Assembly (NCBI GenBank): GCA_019057865.1
Contig: JAHLWP010000001.1
Location: 96,001 to 160,000, forward strand
Length of the DNA stretch: 64,000 nt
Direction: 5' to 3'
Source of the DNA: Promethearchaeota archaeon
Lineage (GTDB): Archaea > Asgardarchaeota > Lokiarchaeia > Sigyniarchaeales > SOKP01
Shown: positions 1 through 46,669 of the stretch, piece by piece
Layout: every line of letters begins with the position of its first letter
How positions within the stretch are numbered: the stretch's first letter is position 1
Made by a program: the position numbers and the translations under genes
Notes under the pieces: model-generated
The model's input: only the letters and a program-made list of their open reading frames with translations
Databases searched by the model: none
What the model was told of the DNA's origin: nothing

Positions 1-556
1 CGAGACGATGATGATAAACATTGGAGATATTGAAATGGGAAAATTCTTGAATATGCCTACTCATGCATATATGGGTTTAAGTGATTCAAAAGTTCCTGAT
101 AGCCAAGCAGGTTTTGAAGCAGGAATGGGAGCCCTTTTAGCAGCACTTGCTGGAAATAATATGGTTTCTGGTCCTGGGATGTTAGATTTTGAATCTACGC
201 AAAGTATAGAAAAATTAATAATTGACAATGAAATTGTAGGAATGGTAAAACGTTTTATCCAAGGTATAGAGGATTATGGTTCTCCTTTTGCAGCCGAAAT
301 TATAAAAGATTATGAAGAAACACAAGAATTATTATCTCATCCAACGACTTTAAAATATTTTAGAAAAGAACTCTTCTTACCAAGTCCTATTATAGATAGA
401 ACAACTCGTGATACGTGGAAAGCATTAGGATCTAAATCTGCAAGAAAAAGAGCAAGAGAAGAAGCAGCTAAATTAGTAAAGAAAACACCAATAAAACCTA
501 TTGATGATTCTCTTATTAAAGATTTAGATAAAATAGTAAAGAATGCATTAAAATAA
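1..556 (+). CDS. Trimethylamine/quaternary-amine methyltransferase (MttB family), 3' part; gene begins before the window
   Basis: C-terminal MttB-like motifs GLSDSKVPDSQAGFE, GPGMLDFESTQSIEKLIIDNEI and HPTTLKYFRKELFLP. Confidence 0.85.
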   Translation, partial: ETMMINIGDIEMGKFLNMPTHAYMGLSDSKVPDSQAGFEAGMGALLAALAGNNMVSGPGMLDFESTQSIEKLIIDNEIVGMVKRFIQGIEDYGSPFAAEIIKDYEETQELLSHPTTLKYFRKELFLPSPIIDRTTRDTWKALGSKSARKRAREEAAKLVKKTPIKPIDDSLIKDLDKIVKNALK

Positions 557-29992: not shown

Positions 29993-30095
29993 GGCCGGGT
30001 TCGTCTAGTGGTAAGGATTGGGGACTGTGAATCCCTAGAGGTTTAAGATCTATTCTATTACCGGGGAAAGACGGGTTCAATTCCCGTACCCGGCC
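29993..30095 (+). tRNA. tRNA-His(GTG) with encoded G-1 and a 30-nt intron in the variable region; CCA not encoded
   Basis: Acceptor GCCGGGT/ACCCGGC, D-arm GTCT-AGTGGTAA-GGAT, anticodon arm GGGGA-CTGTGAA-TCCCT (GTG 30027-30029), T-arm ACGGG-TTCAATT-CCCGT, G-1 (29993) and C73. Confidence 0.92.
30039..30068 (+). other. tRNA-His intron at position about 45/46 (relaxed BHB)
   Basis: Central helix CCCU/GGGG, bulges AG^A and AA^A, inner helix GGU/ACC; excision leaves a 4-nt variable region. Confidence 0.82.
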
Positions 30096-38640: not shown

Positions 38641-39789
38641 CTATTTCCTCCCGTTACCCCAAAAATTATATTTACCACGGCTTAAGATATGTTTCGGATC
38701 AATTGTATCTTTAATCTTTTTCATTAGTTCATAATAACCTTTCTGATAGCCTTGAATATTTACCATATGTCTACTCAGAATATCGCCAAACATATAGAAC
38801 ATTGCTCCATGCTTAATTAGTCTTTCTAAAAGGGATTTCCAAAGCTTAAGATTAATTTCTTTAATATTTTCATGCTTTTCACCATTATAATAGCTTGGAA
38901 AACTAGTAAATCCACAAGTTAACTCAATATTGCTACCTTCAGTTAATATAATTGGACCTGTGCCTGTAATTGGTCGCATTCCAGTTATCTCTAAAATTTT
39001 TTGCATGTCTTCAGAGTGTTCAATATCCCATTGATCTAAATCTTTCATGATCTTAGGATATGCATTAATAGGTACATGACATTCTGCATCTACAGGATCA
39101 AATCCAGGTATTAATCCCCATAAGTTGTGCGCTATTAACCAGTGTCCCTGTTCTTCATAATGCCATTTAGCTATATTTCCATCCGAGATTTCTGGGCCAA
39201 ATTCTTCTGCTTTTTTACCTAATATTATTTTATCTAGTTGTGTAACTTTTGCTTTTAGTTCTGTTTCCGAGTTTGCTTCAACTGTATAAAAAATTACAAC
39301 CCTTTTTCTTTTTAAATGTTCCCACATAGGAAACATTCCATATTGAATCCCAATAGATACAATTAAATCCATGAAATACATAGTATCATAAACATCAATT
39401 CCATTTTGCCTAATTTCAGTCATAATTTGAGCTGCTGTTTCAGCAGGTTTACAAGGCATTAAGAATGTTTTGTACTCTGCAAATTCTGGTTTAGGAAATA
39501 CTTGTAGAGAAACTTTTGTTTTTACGCCAAAGATTCCATTATCCCCACAAAAAAAACCTGCTAAATCAGGACCATTTCCAAATCTATTGAATGGTAATTT
39601 TGAATATTTATTAGCCTGAGAACCAGTTTCAATTATTTCTCCTGTTGGTAAAACTACTTCTAAAGAAACTAATTGGTTAGTACAAGGTCCATACTTGGCG
39701 CATCCACCACCTCCTACAGAATGATGAGAGAGTCCTCCTCCTACTGATGAAGTTAATCCAGATCCTGGACCCATGCATCCTATATAGAG
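38641..39789 (-). pseudogene. FAD-binding (GlcD/Dld-like) oxidoreductase copy 3, 5'-truncated
   Basis: Homology to copies 1 and 2 starts abruptly at LYIGCMGPGSG (39789); the roughly 125 N-terminal residues containing PRGGG are absent. Confidence 0.8.
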
Positions 39790-40407: not shown

Positions 40408-42093
40408 ATGAATAAAAGAAATGTTGTAGTATGGATTCTTGTAGCGGCATTGGTTATATCTGGAATCAGTAATATTATTCTAGTTATAAACTATCCTCAA
40501 CCTTCCACTTCACGGGATCCTGACACACTTGTAGTGGGAATTGCATATAATCCATACACACTAGAAATTGTAAATACAAGATTCGGTCGGGATCACGTAT
40601 CAAATAATATACTTGGACAAATAGTGGAAACTCTATTTACAAATGATTTAACGGATCCGAAATTACCACGAATTAATCTATTAGCTGAATCTCATTGTTG
40701 GGAAAACACCACCACGCTTCACATCAAGCTACGTGAGGGTATTTTGTTCCAAGATGGGACTCCTTTCAATGCTACTGCGGTAAAATGGAATTTCGACCGG
40801 CTTCAATATCTTATCAATGCCACAGGAACAAATGCTGGAGAAGTTGCAGATACTCGTTCTTTATGGATGCGCCCCAATGAGAAAACTCCTATAATAAACA
40901 ACACGGCTATTACAGGTAACTATAATATCACACTCACCCTAAATGGCGCCTATGGTCCTTTTCTAAGTATGTTAACGAATATTAACACTGGAATGATTTC
41001 CCCAACCACACATATGAATGATACTTCCAGATTTATCAGTTTAAATACAGAAAATCTGGTGGGGACGGGTCCGTTTATCTATGGACATTACATTCCAAAT
41101 GTGGAAGTCGTCTTATCGAGATGGGAAGGGTATTGGAGTCATATAGCATACTTTAACAGACTACAATTCGCTATTTTTAGACCTGTTTCGGTGCTAAGAG
41201 ATGCAATGCTTCATCATCAAATCGACTACCTTATGCATTTTGAAGATGAATTCATCCCTGCTTTTGAAGCGGATGAGAGTATAATTCTAAAGAGATTTAC
41301 TGATGATACAGGCTTGCCCGGCTTAAATTACGGTTTATTGGAGTTTAATACCATTCATCTCAACGAAACATGGAGAAAAGCATTGAGCTATGCGATTAAT
41401 TATAGTTATATATTTAATGAAATGAAAGAGGGATGGGATCGAGGCACATCTCCAATTTCTCCATCGTTTGGAGCTTTATACAACACTTCCGTGAAAACTC
41501 CAGAATACAATATTACAAAAGCACGGGAAGTCATGGTATCAATGGGGTTTGGTGATATGGGATGGTCTGATGAACAATGGATCACTTCTATATTTGCTGA
41601 ACTTGGATACTATCCTTATTATTATAGCTATTTTGAGCATGAACTCAAAGAAAAGTTATTAGAATGGTATAGATTAATAGGCGTTTCTTTCTGTGGTTGG
41701 TGGGCTGTTTATCCTTTTGAAGCGTTTGAAGCATTAGATTTTTACTGGATGGGAGACGCACCAGATTTTTTTGACCCCTTTTCTATGTTATATCGGTTGA
41801 ATAACTATGAATATCTAATTTTCAGTTTTGATTGTGTGACTTATTATGTTCCTCCATTAAATGATACTTGGATTAATATCAAATTGGAACTCGTCTTAGA
41901 AACCATTGATGATGAAGCAAGAGATGAGATATATAAGGATGTTCAATGGTATTTTGCTGAGAAGCTATATCCTCATGCATTTGCATGGCATCCAAAAATA
42001 TTCTTTGTGCATTCTGCCGACCTTAGAGGTGTTCCATATAATGCAATGGAAAAATTTCAAGGAAATGTTCTATGGAGAGCAGATAATCTATAG
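40408..42093 (+). CDS. Peptide/nickel ABC transporter solute-binding protein (family 5), orphan
   Basis: N-terminal TM anchor; LREGILFQDGTPFNATAVKWNFDR, VGTGPF, WRKALSYAIN; many NxS/T sequons. Confidence 0.9.
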   Translation: MNKRNVVVWILVAALVISGISNIILVINYPQPSTSRDPDTLVVGIAYNPYTLEIVNTRFGRDHVSNNILGQIVETLFTNDLTDPKLPRINLLAESHCWENTTTLHIKLREGILFQDGTPFNATAVKWNFDRLQYLINATGTNAGEVADTRSLWMRPNEKTPIINNTAITGNYNITLTLNGAYGPFLSMLTNINTGMISPTTHMNDTSRFISLNTENLVGTGPFIYGHYIPNVEVVLSRWEGYWSHIAYFNRLQFAIFRPVSVLRDAMLHHQIDYLMHFEDEFIPAFEADESIILKRFTDDTGLPGLNYGLLEFNTIHLNETWRKALSYAINYSYIFNEMKEGWDRGTSPISPSFGALYNTSVKTPEYNITKAREVMVSMGFGDMGWSDEQWITSIFAELGYYPYYYSYFEHELKEKLLEWYRLIGVSFCGWWAVYPFEAFEALDFYWMGDAPDFFDPFSMLYRLNNYEYLIFSFDCVTYYVPPLNDTWINIKLELVLETIDDEARDEIYKDVQWYFAEKLYPHAFAWHPKIFFVHSADLRGVPYNAMEKFQGNVLWRADNL

Positions 42094-42350: not shown

Positions 42351-43868
42351 TTATTTTTCACCCCAAAAATTAAATTTTCCTCTACTTAATATCATTTTTG
42401 GATCTAAAGTTTTTTTATTTGATTTCATTACATTATAATACTCTTCTGAATATGCTCCGATATCAACCATAACACGAGACATATAATCTCCCATCATGTA
42501 CCATTGTACACCATGCTCAGTAACTCTTTTCAACAGAGATTTCCATAGTTTTATATTTATTTCATCGATAATTTTATGGGCTTCTCCATTATAGAAACTC
42601 CAGAAACTAGTAAACCCACAAGTAATTTCTACATTAGTTCCATCTATTAATAGAATTGGACCACTTCCTGCAATACATCTTATTTTAGTAATTTCAAAGA
42701 TTTTTTGCATATCTTCTTGATGCTCAAAATCCCATTGATCAATATCATCTAAGATACTAGGATATTGTATTATAGGACTAAAACATTCGGCTGTGAGAGG
42801 TTGTATAGTAGGAAAGATTCCCCATAAATTATGATAGAATTGCCAATGTCCTTGTTCAGTATAATGCCATTTAGCGATATTCCCATCTGATATTTCAGGT
42901 CCTAGTTCTTCACTTTTATTTTCCACCATAATCTTATCTAATTGCCTTATCTTTTCGTCTAGCTCTTTTTCAGAATTTGCTTCTATGGTATAAAAGATCA
43001 TACCTCTCTTTTTTTTTAGATCATCCCATAATGGCAAAAATTTTTCTTGCGTCCCAAATCTCACAAGCAGATCCATAATATACATTAAATCATAAACATC
43101 AATTCCTTTTTGTCTAATCTCACTCATCATCTGAGCAGAAATTTCAAGTGAGTTTCGAGGCATTAAAAATGTTTTATAACCAGCATATTCAGGTTTAGGA
43201 AAAACTTGCAGTGAAACTTTTGTTTTTACTCCAAAAATTCCATTATCACCACAAAAAAGTGCAGCTAAATCAGGACCATTTCCAAATCTATTAAATGGGA
43301 ATTTTGAATGTATATTTGCTTGAGATCCTGTTTCAATGATTTCACCAGTTGGCAAAACAACTTCCAATGAAACTAGTTGATTAGTACAGGCACCATACTT
43401 AGCACATCCACCACCACCTACTGAATGATGAGAAGGTCCTCCTCCTATTGATGATGTCAATCCAGATCCTGGACCCATACACCCTGTGTAAAGCCCAAAA
43501 TGACATAAATATTCATTTAGTTTACTTCAAGAGATACCAGCTTCCACAGTAACTATTAAATTATCTATATCCAAATTCAATACTTTATCCATACTTTTTA
43601 GATCTAAGACAATTCCAGTATCTCCAATAGGTTTACTCCCTCCAAACTCACAGTCTCCACCACCTCGAGGGATAACTGGTACATTCTTTTCATTGGCAAT
43701 TTTGAGAATATATGAAATTTCTTCTGTAGTTTTAGGACGTATAACAATATCAGGAACACCTTGAAGATTGGAAGTAACATTCCGGGAATAAGCGTGTCGA
43801 ACATATAAGTCATTAGATATCCTATTTTTGGACACTATTCTTTCTAATTTCTGGTACAATCCTGACAT
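42351..43868 (-). pseudogene. FAD-binding (GlcD/Dld-like) oxidoreductase copy 2 with a single in-frame TGA at a conserved Trp (43527-43529)
   Basis: ORFs 43527-43868 and 42351-43478 share a frame: EAGIS*SKLNEYL versus EAGISWGKLNEYL in copy 1; 1518 nt. Confidence 0.85.
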
Positions 43869-43887: not shown

Positions 43888-45150
43888 TTATAGTTTAGAT
43901 GCAATTAGGTCAATTATATCAATAACTTTAATTTTTTCTTTGATTTCTGGCTCCATTTCTTCATAAGCATTGCTTAGATTTCCGATGCAAAAAGGACAGC
44001 TAGTAGTTAAGATTTGTGCGCCTGATTCAACAGCTTCTTTTATCCTTTCTTGTGAGATTTTAAGAGCTAATTCAGAGAATTGACTCTTCATACCTCCCCC
44101 CGCTCCACAACACCAAGCATTATTTTTATTTCTTTTCATTTCGACTAATTCAATTCCAGGTATTTTAGAAAGAACTTCTCGAGGGATTTCATAAAGATTC
44201 ATATGACGTCCTAAATGGCAGGGATCATGATAAGTGACTTTAACTCTTTCCATCTCTTCTTTAAAAGATATTTTATTGTTATTGATTAATTCCACCAATA
44301 TTTCTGTTATGTGTTTCACTTCAAATGGTAATTCATAGCCTAGTAATTCAGGATAATCTTTTTTCCAAGTTCTATAACATCCTGCGCAAGCTGTAAATAA
44401 GGTTTTAGCACTTTTATTTTTGAATTCATCAATATTGTGCTTAATCATTTCAGTTATAGATTTTTCATCACCAATCCTTATAGCAATAGAACCACAGCAC
44501 CACTCATCTTTAGACATTGCAATTTCTATTCCTGCTGCTTTCAATATTTTCATCATGCTTTTTAGCGTTTCTACTTGTCTTAAGGGCATGGTACACCCTC
44601 CAAAAAACATTAAGTCTCCCTTTTCCTTAATCTCAGGAAATTCCTTTATCCAATCAAATTTTTTATCTTTATCTTCTCCATAAGGATTCTTCATATTATC
44701 ATCGTTCATATACTCGATTAGATCACCATGTCCATCCAGAGGAGCAAAACCAGCCTCAACTAGATCCTTTCTTAATGCTTCCCATACTTTTACATGATCG
44801 ATCCAATTGCTTGTGGGAAGAACAATATATGGATTCTGAGACATATGGCAAACCTCAGTACAATTCCCACATTCGCTGCATTGGTAAACCCATTCAGCAA
44901 GTTCTCTACTCAAAGGAATTTGACCTTCTAAAATGCTCTTGAGAACATTCATTCTTCCCCTTGCAAAATATATTTCAAAACCTTCCTCTTCCTTAGCTTC
45001 CAATACAGGACATGTTAAATATCTACCAACAACAGGTCGAATGGCATACCCACAATCTCCGCAGCCCAAATATAGATTCCAGGAGCTCTAGAACCTTATA
45101 CACGACATGACCGCTTTCCATTCTTTCTTTAAATGTTTCAATTCACTCAT
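43888..45150 (-). CDS. HdrD/GlcF-like Fe-S oxidoreductase (4Fe-4S dicluster plus two CCG domains), split by a 30-nt BHB intron; 410 aa after splicing
   Basis: Exon 1 45150-45098, exon 2 45067-43888; spliced SCMGCGDC...CP, CSECGNCTEVC, WCCGS, TACAGC, YHDPCHLGR, CCGAGGG, TSCPFC. Confidence 0.85.
45068..45097 (-). other. 30-nt BHB mRNA intron (intron A) containing an in-frame UAG
   Basis: GUC|GUGU|AU^A|AGGUUCUAG-AGCUC-CUGGAAUCU|AUAU|UU^G|GGC; ligation gives UGU AUG GGC UGC. Confidence 0.82.
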
Positions 45151-45151
45151 T

Positions 45152-46669
45152 TTATTTTTCACCCCAAAAATTAAATTTACCTCTACTTAAAATCATATTT
45201 GGGTCAACAGTTTTTTTGATTGATTTCATTAAATTATAAAATTCTTCTGAATAAGCTCCAATATCTACCATGAAGCGAGACAAAAAATCACCCATCATAT
45301 ACCATTGTACTCCATGTTTTATTACCCTTTCTAAGAGAGATTTCCATAATTTTATATTTATTTCTTTGATGATTTCATGGATTTCTTCATTATAATATCT
45401 CCAAAAGCTGACAAAACCAGTTGTTATCTCAACATTATTACCGTCTACTAGAGGAACGGGACCACTACCTGATATAGGACGAGTTTTCGTAATATCAAAT
45501 ATTTTTCGCATATCTGCTTCATTTTCTATATCCCATTGATCAACATCTTGCAAAATTTTGGGGAATGCACTAATTGGGCAAAAACATTCAGCTGATAAAG
45601 CTTGCATTGAAGGAAACATTCCCCATAGATTATGATACAATTGCCAATGTCCTTTTTCAACATAATGTCATTTAGCAATATTTCCATCAGATATTTCTGG
45701 ACCTAAATTTTCAGATTTTTTATTCAAAATCATATCATCTAATTTCTTAACATTTTCATTTAATTCAACTTCAGAATTTGCTTCTATAGTATAGAAAAAC
45801 ATTCCTCGCCTACGTTTTAAATGTTCCCATAACGGAAAGAATCCTTGGTCTGATCCTATAGCAACCACAACATCTGGAATAAACATCGCATCATAAACAT
45901 CAATTCCCTTTTGTCTAATTTCATTCATAATCTGTGCTGCTGTTACAGCAGATTTACGAGGCATTAAAAAAGTTTTATATTCTGCAAATTCCGGTTTAGG
46001 AAATACTTGTAAAGAAATTTTTGTTTTTACACCAAAGATTCCATTATCCCCACAAAAAAGACCTGCTAAATCAGGCCCATTTCCAAATCTATTGAATGGT
46101 AATTTCGAATATTTATTGGCCTGAGAACCGGTTTCTATTATTTCTCCTGTTGGTAAAACTACTTCCAGAGAAATTAATTGGTTAGTGCAAGCACCATATT
46201 TAGCACATCCTCCTCCACCAACAGAATGATGAGAAATACCCCCACCTACTGATGCACTCATCCCAGAACCAGGTCCCATACACCCTGTATAGAGTCCAAA
46301 ACGGCACAAATATTCATTTAGTTTTCCCCAAGAAATTCCTGCTTCAACTGTTGTTATGAGATTATCTTCATCTAAATTAATAATGTTATTCATTCTTTTC
46401 ATATCTAAAACTATACCCCCATCTCCAATAGGTTTGCTTCCACCAAATTCGCAAATACCAGCTCCACGAGGGATAACAGCTATATTCTCTTCATTGGCAA
46501 TTTTAAGGATTTCTGAGATTTCTTTTGCATCTATTGGTCTTATAATAATATCAGGTACTCCTTGTAAAACAAGATCAACATTTCTGGAATAAGCATGGCG
46601 CACATAAATATCATTTGAGAGAAACTCTTTTGATACTACTTTTTCTAACTTTTTGTAGACTTCTGACAT
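45152..46669 (-). pseudogene. FAD-binding (GlcD/Dld-like) oxidoreductase copy 1 with a single in-frame TGA at a conserved Trp (45668-45670)
   Basis: GNIAK*HYVEKGHW versus GNIAKWHY in copies 2 and 3; 1518 nt, the same length as copy 2. Confidence 0.85.

What the first reader, a model, noticed from the sequence alone, without database searches (positions are those of the whole stretch)
45068..45097. BHB intron inside a protein-coding Fe-S oxidoreductase gene (candidate Asgard pre-mRNA splicing)
Seen: the likely real start is ATG 45150 (MSELKHLKKEWKAVMSC), in frame with the 393-aa ORF but separated from it by 30 nt containing TAG (45090-45088). The RNA folds as a full hBHBh' motif: outer helix GUC/GGC, central 4-bp helix GUGU/AUAU (two G-U), 3-nt bulges AUA and UUG, and a 9-bp inner stem with a 5-nt loop. 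Cutting after the 2nd nt of each bulge gives UGU-AUG-GGC-UGC-GGA-GAU-UGU, i.e. C-M-G-C-G-D-C, restoring the first [4Fe-4S] CxxCxxC motif. Established: the archaeal splicing endonuclease EndA cleaves BHB motifs this way and RtcB ligates; the classic mRNA case is cbf5 in crenarchaea. Inference: a metabolic gene in a probable Lokiarchaeon needs tRNA-type splicing for expression. Caveat: the operon shows signs of decay, so current activity is unproven.
Basis: partly seen in the sequence, partly recalled or inferred. Interest (0 to 1): 0.95.

Follow-up and report, generated by a model that had tools for sequence, protein, structure and literature searches.

The report
tRNA-type mini-intron in Asgard Fe-S gene
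A 30-base insert shaped like a tRNA intron splits the first iron-sulfur motif of a metabolic gene in a Loki-type Asgard archaeon, and 39 different versions of it sit at the same nucleotide in related genomes, so the mRNA almost certainly has to be cut and re-joined, which papers report for only one archaeal protein-coding sequence (cbf5).

Summary
Minus-strand bases 45097-45068 are a 30-nt insert with an in-frame TAG. It folds as hBHBh' (outer GUC/GGC, central GUGU/AUAU, bulges AUA and UUG, 9-bp inner stem). Cutting after the second bulge nucleotide gives ...AVMSC-M-GCGDCGYAIRP.

Intron-less orthologues read exactly that, including the closest relative (96% identical). Of 125 orthologous loci, 46 carry an insert at the same nucleotide. 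There are 39 distinct sequences of 29-34 nt (one BHB) or 56-63 nt (two nested BHBs), most not multiples of three. Pairing is 90%, against 39-51% in slid registers, and the central helix is 98% paired. Every carrier keeps a UCN Ser codon that builds the exon half of the motif.

The genome encodes an (alpha-beta)2-type EndA and RtcB. A second, 32-nt mRNA intron 17 kb away passed the same test.

The "decay" is one TGG>TGA in each flanking GlcD-like gene, unique to this genome. All three genes remain under purifying selection.

Intron presence is scattered on the gene tree, and some introns are far more conserved than their exons, which hints at mobility. This scan has already noted the same class many times on other Asgard DNA. 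In print I found only cbf5.

The parts
45098..45150 (-). Exon 1 of the Fe-S subunit gene: ATG 45150, 17 codons plus AU of the split Met codon (MSELKHLKKEWKAVMSC + AU). It holds Cys17, the first Cys of CxxCxxC.
   Evidence: Orthologues start the same way. Fer4_8 reaches residue 16 in the intron-less orthologue but only profile position 8 in the 393-aa ORF.
45068..45097 (-). 30-nt BHB intron (A + 9-nt stem arm + loop AGCUC + 9-nt stem arm + AUAU + UU), with in-frame TAG at 45090-45088.
   Evidence: Absent from G012 and most orthologues. Replaced by 38 other sequences at the same site.
43888..45067 (-). Exon 2: G of the Met codon, then GCGDCGYAIRP..., the rest of the Fer4_8 domain and two CCG domains, and the stop at 43890-43888.
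   Evidence: 96% identical to the G012 protein once spliced; dN/dS 0.12.
45100..45106 (-). Exon half of the motif, 5' strand: outer helix GUC (45106-45104) and central helix GUGU (45103-45100). This is the last base of an AUG codon, the UCG Ser codon and the UGU Cys codon.
   Evidence: All 39 carriers have UCN here; intron-less alleles are 26 UCN and 29 other.
45097..45099 (-). 5' bulge AU|A; predicted cut between 45098 and 45097.
   Evidence: Bulge AUA in 28 of the 29 single-unit introns (AUU in L104).
45074..45096 (-). Inner helix h': 9-bp hairpin with a 5-nt loop, wholly inside the intron.
   Evidence: The first four inner pairs all show changes on both sides across carriers.
45070..45073 (-). 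Central helix 3' strand AUAU (intron).
   Evidence: Central helix 98.3% paired over 29 distinct introns, with UA/GU/UG/CG/GC at the first pair.
45064..45069 (-). 3' bulge UU|G (45069-45067; predicted cut between 45068 and 45067) and outer helix 3' strand GGC (the Gly codon, 45066-45064).
45152..46669 (-). Upstream GlcD-like FAD oxidase gene of the operon, with one in-frame TGA (45670-45668) at a Trp position.
   Evidence: dN/dS 0.077 against G012, no indels.
42351..43868 (-). Downstream GlcD-like FAD oxidase gene, with one in-frame TGA (43529-43527) at a Trp position.
   Evidence: dN/dS 0.22.

Best explanation
The 30 nt are a true bulge-helix-bulge (tRNA-type) intron in the pre-mRNA of an HdrD/GlcF-type iron-sulfur subunit gene. 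In the transcript, the Ser-Cys-Met codons of exon 1 and the Gly codon of exon 2 pair with each other and with the 3' end of the intron. This forms a 3-bp outer helix and a 4-bp central helix flanked by two 3-nt bulges, and the rest of the intron forms a hairpin. The host's (alpha-beta)2 splicing endonuclease EndA cuts after the second nucleotide of each bulge. RtcB joins the exons and rebuilds the AUG codon, so the message encodes C-M-G-C-G-D-C, the first [4Fe-4S] motif. The intron is released, probably as a circle. Without splicing only a 20-residue peptide can be made, or an N-truncated protein lacking the first cluster cysteine. Shown here: the geometry, the exact restoration of the conserved protein, conservation of the structure with covariation across 39 divergent introns at one site, codon constraint in the exons, and presence of the enzymes. 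Inferred: the cleavage and ligation themselves. In relatives with 56-63-nt inserts, a second BHB unit sits exactly at the 3' splice site of the first and borrows its 3' central strand. I infer that it must be removed first, which regenerates the ordinary 29-31-nt intron.
For: Sequence and geometry. Intron-less orthologues read ...MSCMGCGDCGYAIRP or MSCMNCGDCG, including G012 at 96% identity, where the only indel in the gene is these 30 nt. 46 of 125 fetched orthologous loci carry an insert at the identical nucleotide. There are 39 distinct sequences of 29, 30, 31, 34, 56, 57, 60, 61 and 63 nt, most of them frame-breaking. Structure counts on 29 distinct single-unit introns: 90% of cells paired against 39-51% in slid registers, central helix 98.3% paired, covariation score 0.51 against 0.06-0.14, 0 of 500 shuffles as high. 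All 39 carriers use UCN for the Ser codon that pairs in the motif, against 26 UCN and 29 other in intron-less alleles (not corrected for phylogeny). All 10 double introns fit the nested model; the second central helix is 4/4 paired in 7 and 3/4 in 3, and it co-varies (GCAG/CUGC, GCGG/CCGC, GCAG/CUGU). The spliced gene is intact with dN/dS 0.12 against G012. Machinery: two EndA genes, one catalytic-type and one with the catalytic His replaced by Ser, plus RtcB. PMC5829648 reports (alpha-beta)2 EndA with the broad-specificity L1 loop in Asgard. A second mRNA intron of 32 nt in the same genome passes the same orthologue test. A tRNA-His in the window carries a roughly 30-nt non-canonical intron.
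Against: No RNA-level evidence was obtained. Thermodynamic folding does not favour the BHB conformer: it is 3.1 kcal/mol above the MFE here, a median of 4.4 across carriers, and never the MFE. The single-sequence fold z-score is only -1.9. The outer helix is only 3 bp and its third pair is unpaired in 12 of 29 introns. In this genome both partner GlcD-like genes carry a premature TGA, so the operon may not currently work. My de novo genome-wide scan for BHB motifs that join open frames showed no excess over wrong-geometry controls, so it gives no independent support for widespread mRNA splicing.
Confidence: 0.88

Rival explanations
1. Decay: the insert is a scar in a dying gene (a pseudogene) and is never removed.
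For: Both flanking GlcD-like genes in this genome have an in-frame TGA, and a third copy is 5'-truncated.
Against: The exons are intact and under purifying selection (dN/dS 0.12). 39 different inserts occupy the same nucleotide in otherwise intact genes and keep one RNA structure with covariation. Exon codons are constrained to keep the motif. A scar would not be conserved in structure or position.
Confidence: 0.03
2. The gene is expressed without splicing: a short leader peptide plus a 393-aa protein started at TTG 45069, or read-through of the TAG that gives a 10-residue insertion.
For: A TTG-started ORF of 393 aa exists, and gene callers annotate such truncated proteins of 393-397 aa in databases.
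Against: The truncated protein lacks Cys17, the first cluster ligand; Fer4_8 then starts at profile position 8. Exon 1 is conserved in carriers. Read-through is impossible for the 29-, 31-, 34-, 56-, 57- and 61-nt inserts. No tRNA reading a stop codon was found, although ARAGORN sees few tRNAs in this genome.
Confidence: 0.04
3. Translational bypassing (ribosome hopping, as in phage T4 gene 60) over a structured gap.
For: A stop codon soon after the take-off region and a hairpin in the gap give a superficial resemblance.
Against: There are no matching take-off and landing codons. Gap length varies from 29 to 63 nt. What is conserved is the two-bulge, 4-bp-helix geometry, including pairing between the two exons, which is specific to EndA substrates.
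Confidence: 0.02
4. Assembly or sequencing artefact.
For: None beyond the fact that this is a MAG.
Against: Inserts at the same site occur in dozens of independently assembled genomes and metagenome contigs.
Confidence: 0.01

Closest known systems
BHB intron in the cbf5 (pseudouridine synthase) pre-mRNA of Crenarchaeota (Watanabe 2002; Yoshinari 2006; Yokobori 2009, PMC2738675)
   Same: A short BHB intron inside a coding sequence. Predicted cuts lie between the 2nd and 3rd bulge nucleotides. The host has a hetero-oligomeric (alpha-beta)2 EndA. The intron has been gained and lost among related species. It splits a catalytically important motif.
   Different: A different gene (a metabolic Fe-S subunit rather than an RNA-modification enzyme) and a different phylum (Asgard/Promethearchaeota). 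Here the motif is a full hBHBh', whereas most cbf5 introns are described as unconventional BHB. Presence varies even between near-identical alleles. Nested double introns occur. cbf5 splicing has been shown experimentally; this one has not.
Non-canonical BHB introns of archaeal tRNA genes, including the heavily interrupted tRNA genes of Asgard archaea (bioRxiv 10.64898/2026.10.13.758758; Marck and Grosjean 2003)
   Same: The same motif, the same size class (about 30 nt), the same enzymes, and repeated gains at sites where the exons can build half of the motif. The window's own tRNA-His has such an intron.
   Different: The host RNA is an mRNA. The exon half of the motif is made of codons (Ser-Cys-Met / Gly), so it is constrained by both protein and RNA structure.
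BHB intron in the 5' UTR of Haloferax volcanii HVO_1309 (PMC7714728)
   Same: EndA-dependent excision from an mRNA, shown there by circRNA-seq and in vitro cleavage.
   Different: That intron is in the untranslated leader, so the reading frame does not depend on it. The Haloferax enzyme is, from my own knowledge, a different (homodimeric) EndA type.
HAC1/XBP1 unconventional mRNA splicing (Ire1 plus tRNA ligase/RtcB) and 'SOS splicing' of transposons from animal mRNAs (PMC12779559)
   Same: Spliceosome-independent removal of a structured insert from a coding mRNA. For HAC1 the ends are joined by a tRNA-type ligase (RtcB can do this; Tanaka 2011, cited in PMC5829648). [quoted passage not shown]
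   Different: Different nucleases and recognition rules. This is a functional analogy only, not shared ancestry of the intron.

Membership tests
Archaeal BHB (EndA/RtcB-type) intron | [quoted passage not shown] | tested here: met
   Central helix 98.3% paired over 29 distinct introns.
Archaeal BHB (EndA/RtcB-type) intron | Flanking helices h (exon-exon) and h' (intron), i.e. strict hBHBh' | tested here: met
   Outer helix 3 bp, inner helix 9 bp. Across carriers the outer helix is 84% and the inner 86% paired, with changes on both sides.
Archaeal BHB (EndA/RtcB-type) intron | Cutting after the 2nd nucleotide of each bulge yields the functional product | tested here: met
   The junction rebuilds AUG and reads SCMGCGDC, identical to intron-less orthologues.
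Archaeal BHB (EndA/RtcB-type) intron | The host encodes splicing endonuclease and RtcB ligase | tested here: met
   PF01974 twice. One subunit is alpha-like and the other has Ser at the catalytic His. RtcB scores 561 bits.
Archaeal BHB (EndA/RtcB-type) intron | The intron is absent from mature RNA; an excised or circular intron is detectable | not testable with these tools
cbf5-type pre-mRNA intron | Located in the cbf5 gene at the catalytic Asp codon | tested here: not met
   The host gene is a Fer4_8 + 2xCCG Fe-S subunit.
Group I / group II self-splicing intron | A ribozyme core of hundreds of nucleotides that matches curated models | tested here: not met
   The insert is 30 nt, and Rfam gives no match at E<=1 in 44500-45700.
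Programmed translational bypass (T4 gene 60 type) | Matching take-off and landing codons and a fixed gap | tested here: not met
   There are no matching codons, and the gap varies from 29 to 63 nt.
Intein | An in-frame, stop-free insertion encoding a self-splicing protein domain | tested here: not met
   The insert is 10 codons with a TAG, and many homologous inserts break the frame.
GlcF / HdrD / TfrB-type Fe-S subunit (host gene) | N-terminal ferredoxin-like dicluster domain plus two CCG domains | tested here: met
   Pfam Fer4_8 and CCG x2. All NCBIfam equivalogs score below their cut-offs, so the exact enzyme cannot be named.

The most novel reading that the evidence does not exclude
These roughly 30-nt BHB introns are not just relics but a mobile, self-propagating class that depends on the host tRNA-splicing enzymes. 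They move between alleles of the same gene and can land right at an existing splice site, giving nested twin introns. This would explain three observations: presence or absence is almost uncorrelated with the gene tree; near-identical introns sit in exons that are close to saturated at synonymous sites; and only alleles whose codons can build the exon half of the motif carry one. It would amount to ongoing intron gain in protein-coding genes of the closest archaeal relatives of eukaryotes.
Probability: 0.3. Interest if true: 0.9.

Novelty: new member of a known kind. Interest (0 to 1): 0.7.

Why it matters
In the papers I could search, endonuclease-type splicing of an archaeal coding sequence is documented for one gene, cbf5 in Crenarchaeota. 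PMC7714728 says so explicitly in 2020, and PMC2738675 calls other cases only 'predicted'. Here an ordinary metabolic gene of an Asgard archaeon needs the same reaction to encode its first Fe-S cluster motif, and the comparative evidence is unusually deep: 39 independent intron sequences at one site.

- **Annotation:** databases hold many N-truncated 393-397-aa versions of this protein, probably mis-called because of the intron.
- **RNA biology:** mRNAs would be regular substrates of the tRNA-splicing machinery in this lineage.
- **Evolution:** this locus is a natural experiment with presence/absence polymorphism, nested double introns, and exon codons that co-evolve with the intron. It could show how such introns are gained and lost in the closest prokaryotic relatives of eukaryotes.

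Tried and rejected

2. **De novo genome-wide scan of G000.** I looked for strict BHB motifs whose removal joins two open frames. The first version timed out. The later versions added codon-usage log-odds on both exons, an inner-stem length filter, and a filter requiring read-through to end soon. The known intron was recovered, but counts for the true 3/3 bulge geometry equalled those for the wrong geometries (1/1, 5/5, 2/4, 4/2, 4/4). The method is too noisy to count mRNA introns and says nothing either way.

3. **TGA read as Trp.** I considered this because both flanking genes have TGA exactly where paralogues have Trp. I rejected it as a conserved feature: about 66 other copies have TGG, and only G000 has TGA. 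No UGA-reading tRNA was found, although ARAGORN detects only 13-18 tRNAs in this genome.

4. **Dispersed repeat or MITE family.** blastn-short of all 39 introns against the genome gave only short chance hits.

The neighbours are an Rce1-like protease, an AMP-binding enzyme, a solute-binding protein, a transglutaminase-like protein and a GNAT acetyltransferase, with no nuclease among them.

6. **Thermodynamic support.** The BHB conformer is never the MFE, so free energy cannot be used as evidence.

7. **Careful tree.** The careful IQ-TREE search did not finish. The tree statements rest on the quick tree.

Full report
**Observation.** On the minus strand the gene starts at ATG 45150 and reads MSELKHLKKEWKAVMSC. 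It then runs through 30 nt (45097-45068) that contain TAG 45090-45088, and it resumes in frame as GCGDCGYAIRP....

By direct reading and by script the RNA can form:
- an outer helix GUC/GGC;
- a central helix GUGU/AUAU;
- bulges AUA and UUG;
- a perfect 9-bp inner stem with a 5-nt loop.

The bulges lie on the sides expected for a canonical BHB: the 5' bulge between the central and inner helices, and the 3' bulge between the central and outer helices. That expectation is from my own knowledge. Cutting after the second nucleotide of each bulge rebuilds an AUG codon and gives C-M-G-C-G-D-C.

Taken alone this is not statistically strong. The fold z-score is -1.9, and the BHB conformer lies 3.1 kcal/mol above the MFE.

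**Host gene and organism.** The protein has a Fer4_8 dicluster domain and two CCG domains, which makes it an HdrD/GlcF/TfrB-type Fe-S subunit. It scores below every NCBIfam equivalog cut-off. It sits between two GlcD-like FAD oxidase genes.

In the 393-aa ORF the Fer4_8 match starts at profile position 8. In an intron-less orthologue it reaches back to residue 16 and so includes Cys17 of exon 1.

The window is G000:C23:96001-160000 of a 4.26-Mb MAG that is about 99.7% complete. Close homologues come from records named Promethearchaeota or Lokiarchaeota.

**Comparative test.**
- Within the genus, most orthologous genes are 1230-1233 nt and read ...MSCMGCGDCGYAIRP or ...MSCMNCGDCG. They include G012 (96% protein identity), where the only indel in the gene is these 30 nt.
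- I collected 125 orthologous loci from relatives, GTDB genomes and metagenomes; some genomes were fetched twice. 46 carry an insert at exactly the same nucleotide (UGY AU|...|G GGN).
- There are 39 distinct sequences: 29 of 29-34 nt and 10 of 56-63 nt. Most lengths are not multiples of three.

This excludes read-through, a tolerated peptide insertion and assembly error.

**Structure conservation.** I aligned the 29 distinct single-unit introns (A1), where the exon anchors fix the columns. The named structure was 3 outer, 4 central and 4 inner pairs.
- 90% of cells are paired, against 39-51% for every slid register.
- The covariation score is 0.51 against 0.06-0.14, and 0 of 500 shuffles reach the observed values.
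- The central helix is 98.3% paired. Its first pair joins the wobble base of the Ser codon to the intron and appears as UA, GU, UG, CG and GC.
- All 39 carriers use UCN for that Ser, whereas intron-less alleles are 26 UCN and 29 other, mostly AGY (Fisher 2.5e-9, not corrected for phylogeny).

So the exons are constrained to keep their half of the motif.

**Double introns.** The ten 56-63-nt inserts all parse the same way.
- A 29-31-nt unit like the single introns is followed by a second unit of 26-32 nt, placed exactly at the first unit's 3' splice site.
- The second unit uses the first unit's 3' central strand as its own 5' central strand (GCAG/CUGC, GCGG/CUGC, GCGG/CCGC, GCAG/CUGU). This helix is 4/4 paired in seven and 3/4 in three.
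- It has its own hairpin and an outer helix to exon 2.
- The shared strand cannot pair both ways at once. I therefore infer ordered removal: unit 2 goes first, which regenerates a normal BHB for unit 1.

**Machinery.** The genome has two EndA genes.
- One is closest to the catalytic chain of the Aeropyrum enzyme.
- The other has Ser where M. jannaschii EndA has the catalytic His.

This indicates an (alpha-beta)2 enzyme. PMC5829648 reports that type for Asgard, with the L1 loop linked to broad substrate range, and it is also the type found in the Crenarchaeota that splice cbf5 mRNA. RtcB is present.

**Other introns in the same genome.**
- A tRNA-His in the window spans 102 nt for a 71-position model, so it carries a roughly 30-nt insert after the anticodon arm. 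ARAGORN missed it.
Six of the 25 loci fetched carry it; in the full list, eight orthologues have the short 453-455-aa open frame. All the others, including G012, read VMGLE|SQIPDIVV without interruption.

So this organism needs mRNA splicing for at least two genes.

**State of the operon.** Each flanking GlcD-like gene has one in-frame TGA, at 45670-45668 and at 43529-43527, exactly where paralogues and about 66 orthologues have TGG. A third copy at 38641-39774 lacks its 5' part.

Against G012 there are no frameshifts. dN/dS is 0.08 (upstream GlcD), 0.12 (spliced Fe-S gene) and 0.22 (downstream GlcD). The nonsense changes are therefore recent, or tolerated, or strain-level variants. They do not bear on whether the intron is real, but they leave the current function of this copy open.

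**Evolution of the intron.**
- On a quick ML tree of exon 2 (97 sequences) the intron state needs about 24 changes, at least 11 of them forced by well-supported branches. That is barely fewer than for shuffled labels.
- G000 (30 nt), G012 (none) and a metagenome contig (61 nt) form one tight clade.
- Some introns are 93-97% identical, loops included, between alleles whose flanking exons are 71-87% identical, with differences directly next to both splice sites.
- The intron is not a dispersed repeat in the genome, and no nuclease gene lies beside the operon.

Either the whole intron sequence is under strong selection or the intron moves between alleles. Recombination near the 5' end of the gene could also blur the tree. 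I could not separate these.

**Prior knowledge.** In the searchable literature the only coding-sequence BHB intron is cbf5. PMC2738675 says there is 'no confirmation ... for genes other than cbf5'. PMC7714728 says 'only one example' and adds a 5'-UTR intron in Haloferax. Four searches found nothing on Asgard mRNA introns. A 2026 preprint covers only Asgard tRNA introns.

This scan itself has noted the same class many times on other Asgard DNA and elsewhere in this genome, in some cases with RNA support according to those unchecked notes.

[quoted passage not shown] It has exceptionally strong comparative support but no direct RNA evidence here. The family-level features (polymorphism, nested twin introns, exon-intron co-evolution, hints of mobility) are what make this locus worth an experiment.

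Noticed in passing
window 45668-45670 and 43527-43529 (minus strand): Each of the two GlcD-like paralogues flanking the Fe-S gene has a single in-frame TGA exactly at a conserved Trp (TGG) codon. Only this genome has them, and the genes are otherwise intact with low dN/dS. This could be recent nonsense mutation, strain variation or tolerated read-through.
   Followed up: yes
window 38641-39774 (minus strand), and 40408-42093 (plus strand): A third GlcD-like copy lacks its first ~130 codons; the upstream sequence is full of stops. It is separated from the operon by a family-5 solute-binding protein gene. G012 lacks this duplication and insertion.
   Followed up: partly
window 29994-30095 (+): tRNA-His (anticodon GUG) with a roughly 30-nt insert after the anticodon arm, near position 45/46. 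It can be drawn with a CCCU/GGGG central helix and AGA/AAA bulges. Rfam finds the tRNA; ARAGORN does not.
   Followed up: partly
G000:C23:162109-162140 (+), about 2.1 kb beyond the window end (L147:510-541): A second mRNA BHB intron of 32 nt in a FAD-binding oxidase gene, between GAA and AGC. It is present in 6 of the 25 genus orthologues fetched (8 short open frames in the full list) and absent from the rest, including G012.
   Followed up: yes
whole genome G000: ARAGORN finds only 13 tRNA genes (18 with intron search, 12 of them with introns) in a genome that is about 99.7% complete. This fits most tRNA genes being interrupted at non-canonical positions, as a 2026 preprint reports for some Asgard classes.
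   Followed up: partly
window 77-176 (+): Rfam PYLIS_3 (the mttB pyrrolysine insertion element) scores above its gathering threshold inside the C-terminal part of an MttB-family ORF that runs off the window start. There is no in-frame TAG in the part visible here, so the match may only reflect coding similarity.
   Followed up: partly
loci L029/L112, L103/L104, L115/L134 (orthologues): Introns are 93-97% identical, loops included, while flanking exons are 71-87% identical, with differences immediately next to both splice sites.
   Followed up: partly
protein database hits P0003, P0008, P0010-P0015, P0018, P0020 and others: Many deposited orthologues are 393-397 aa and cover only 93-94% of the query. 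They are probably gene calls truncated at the intron, i.e. systematic mis-annotation.
   Followed up: partly
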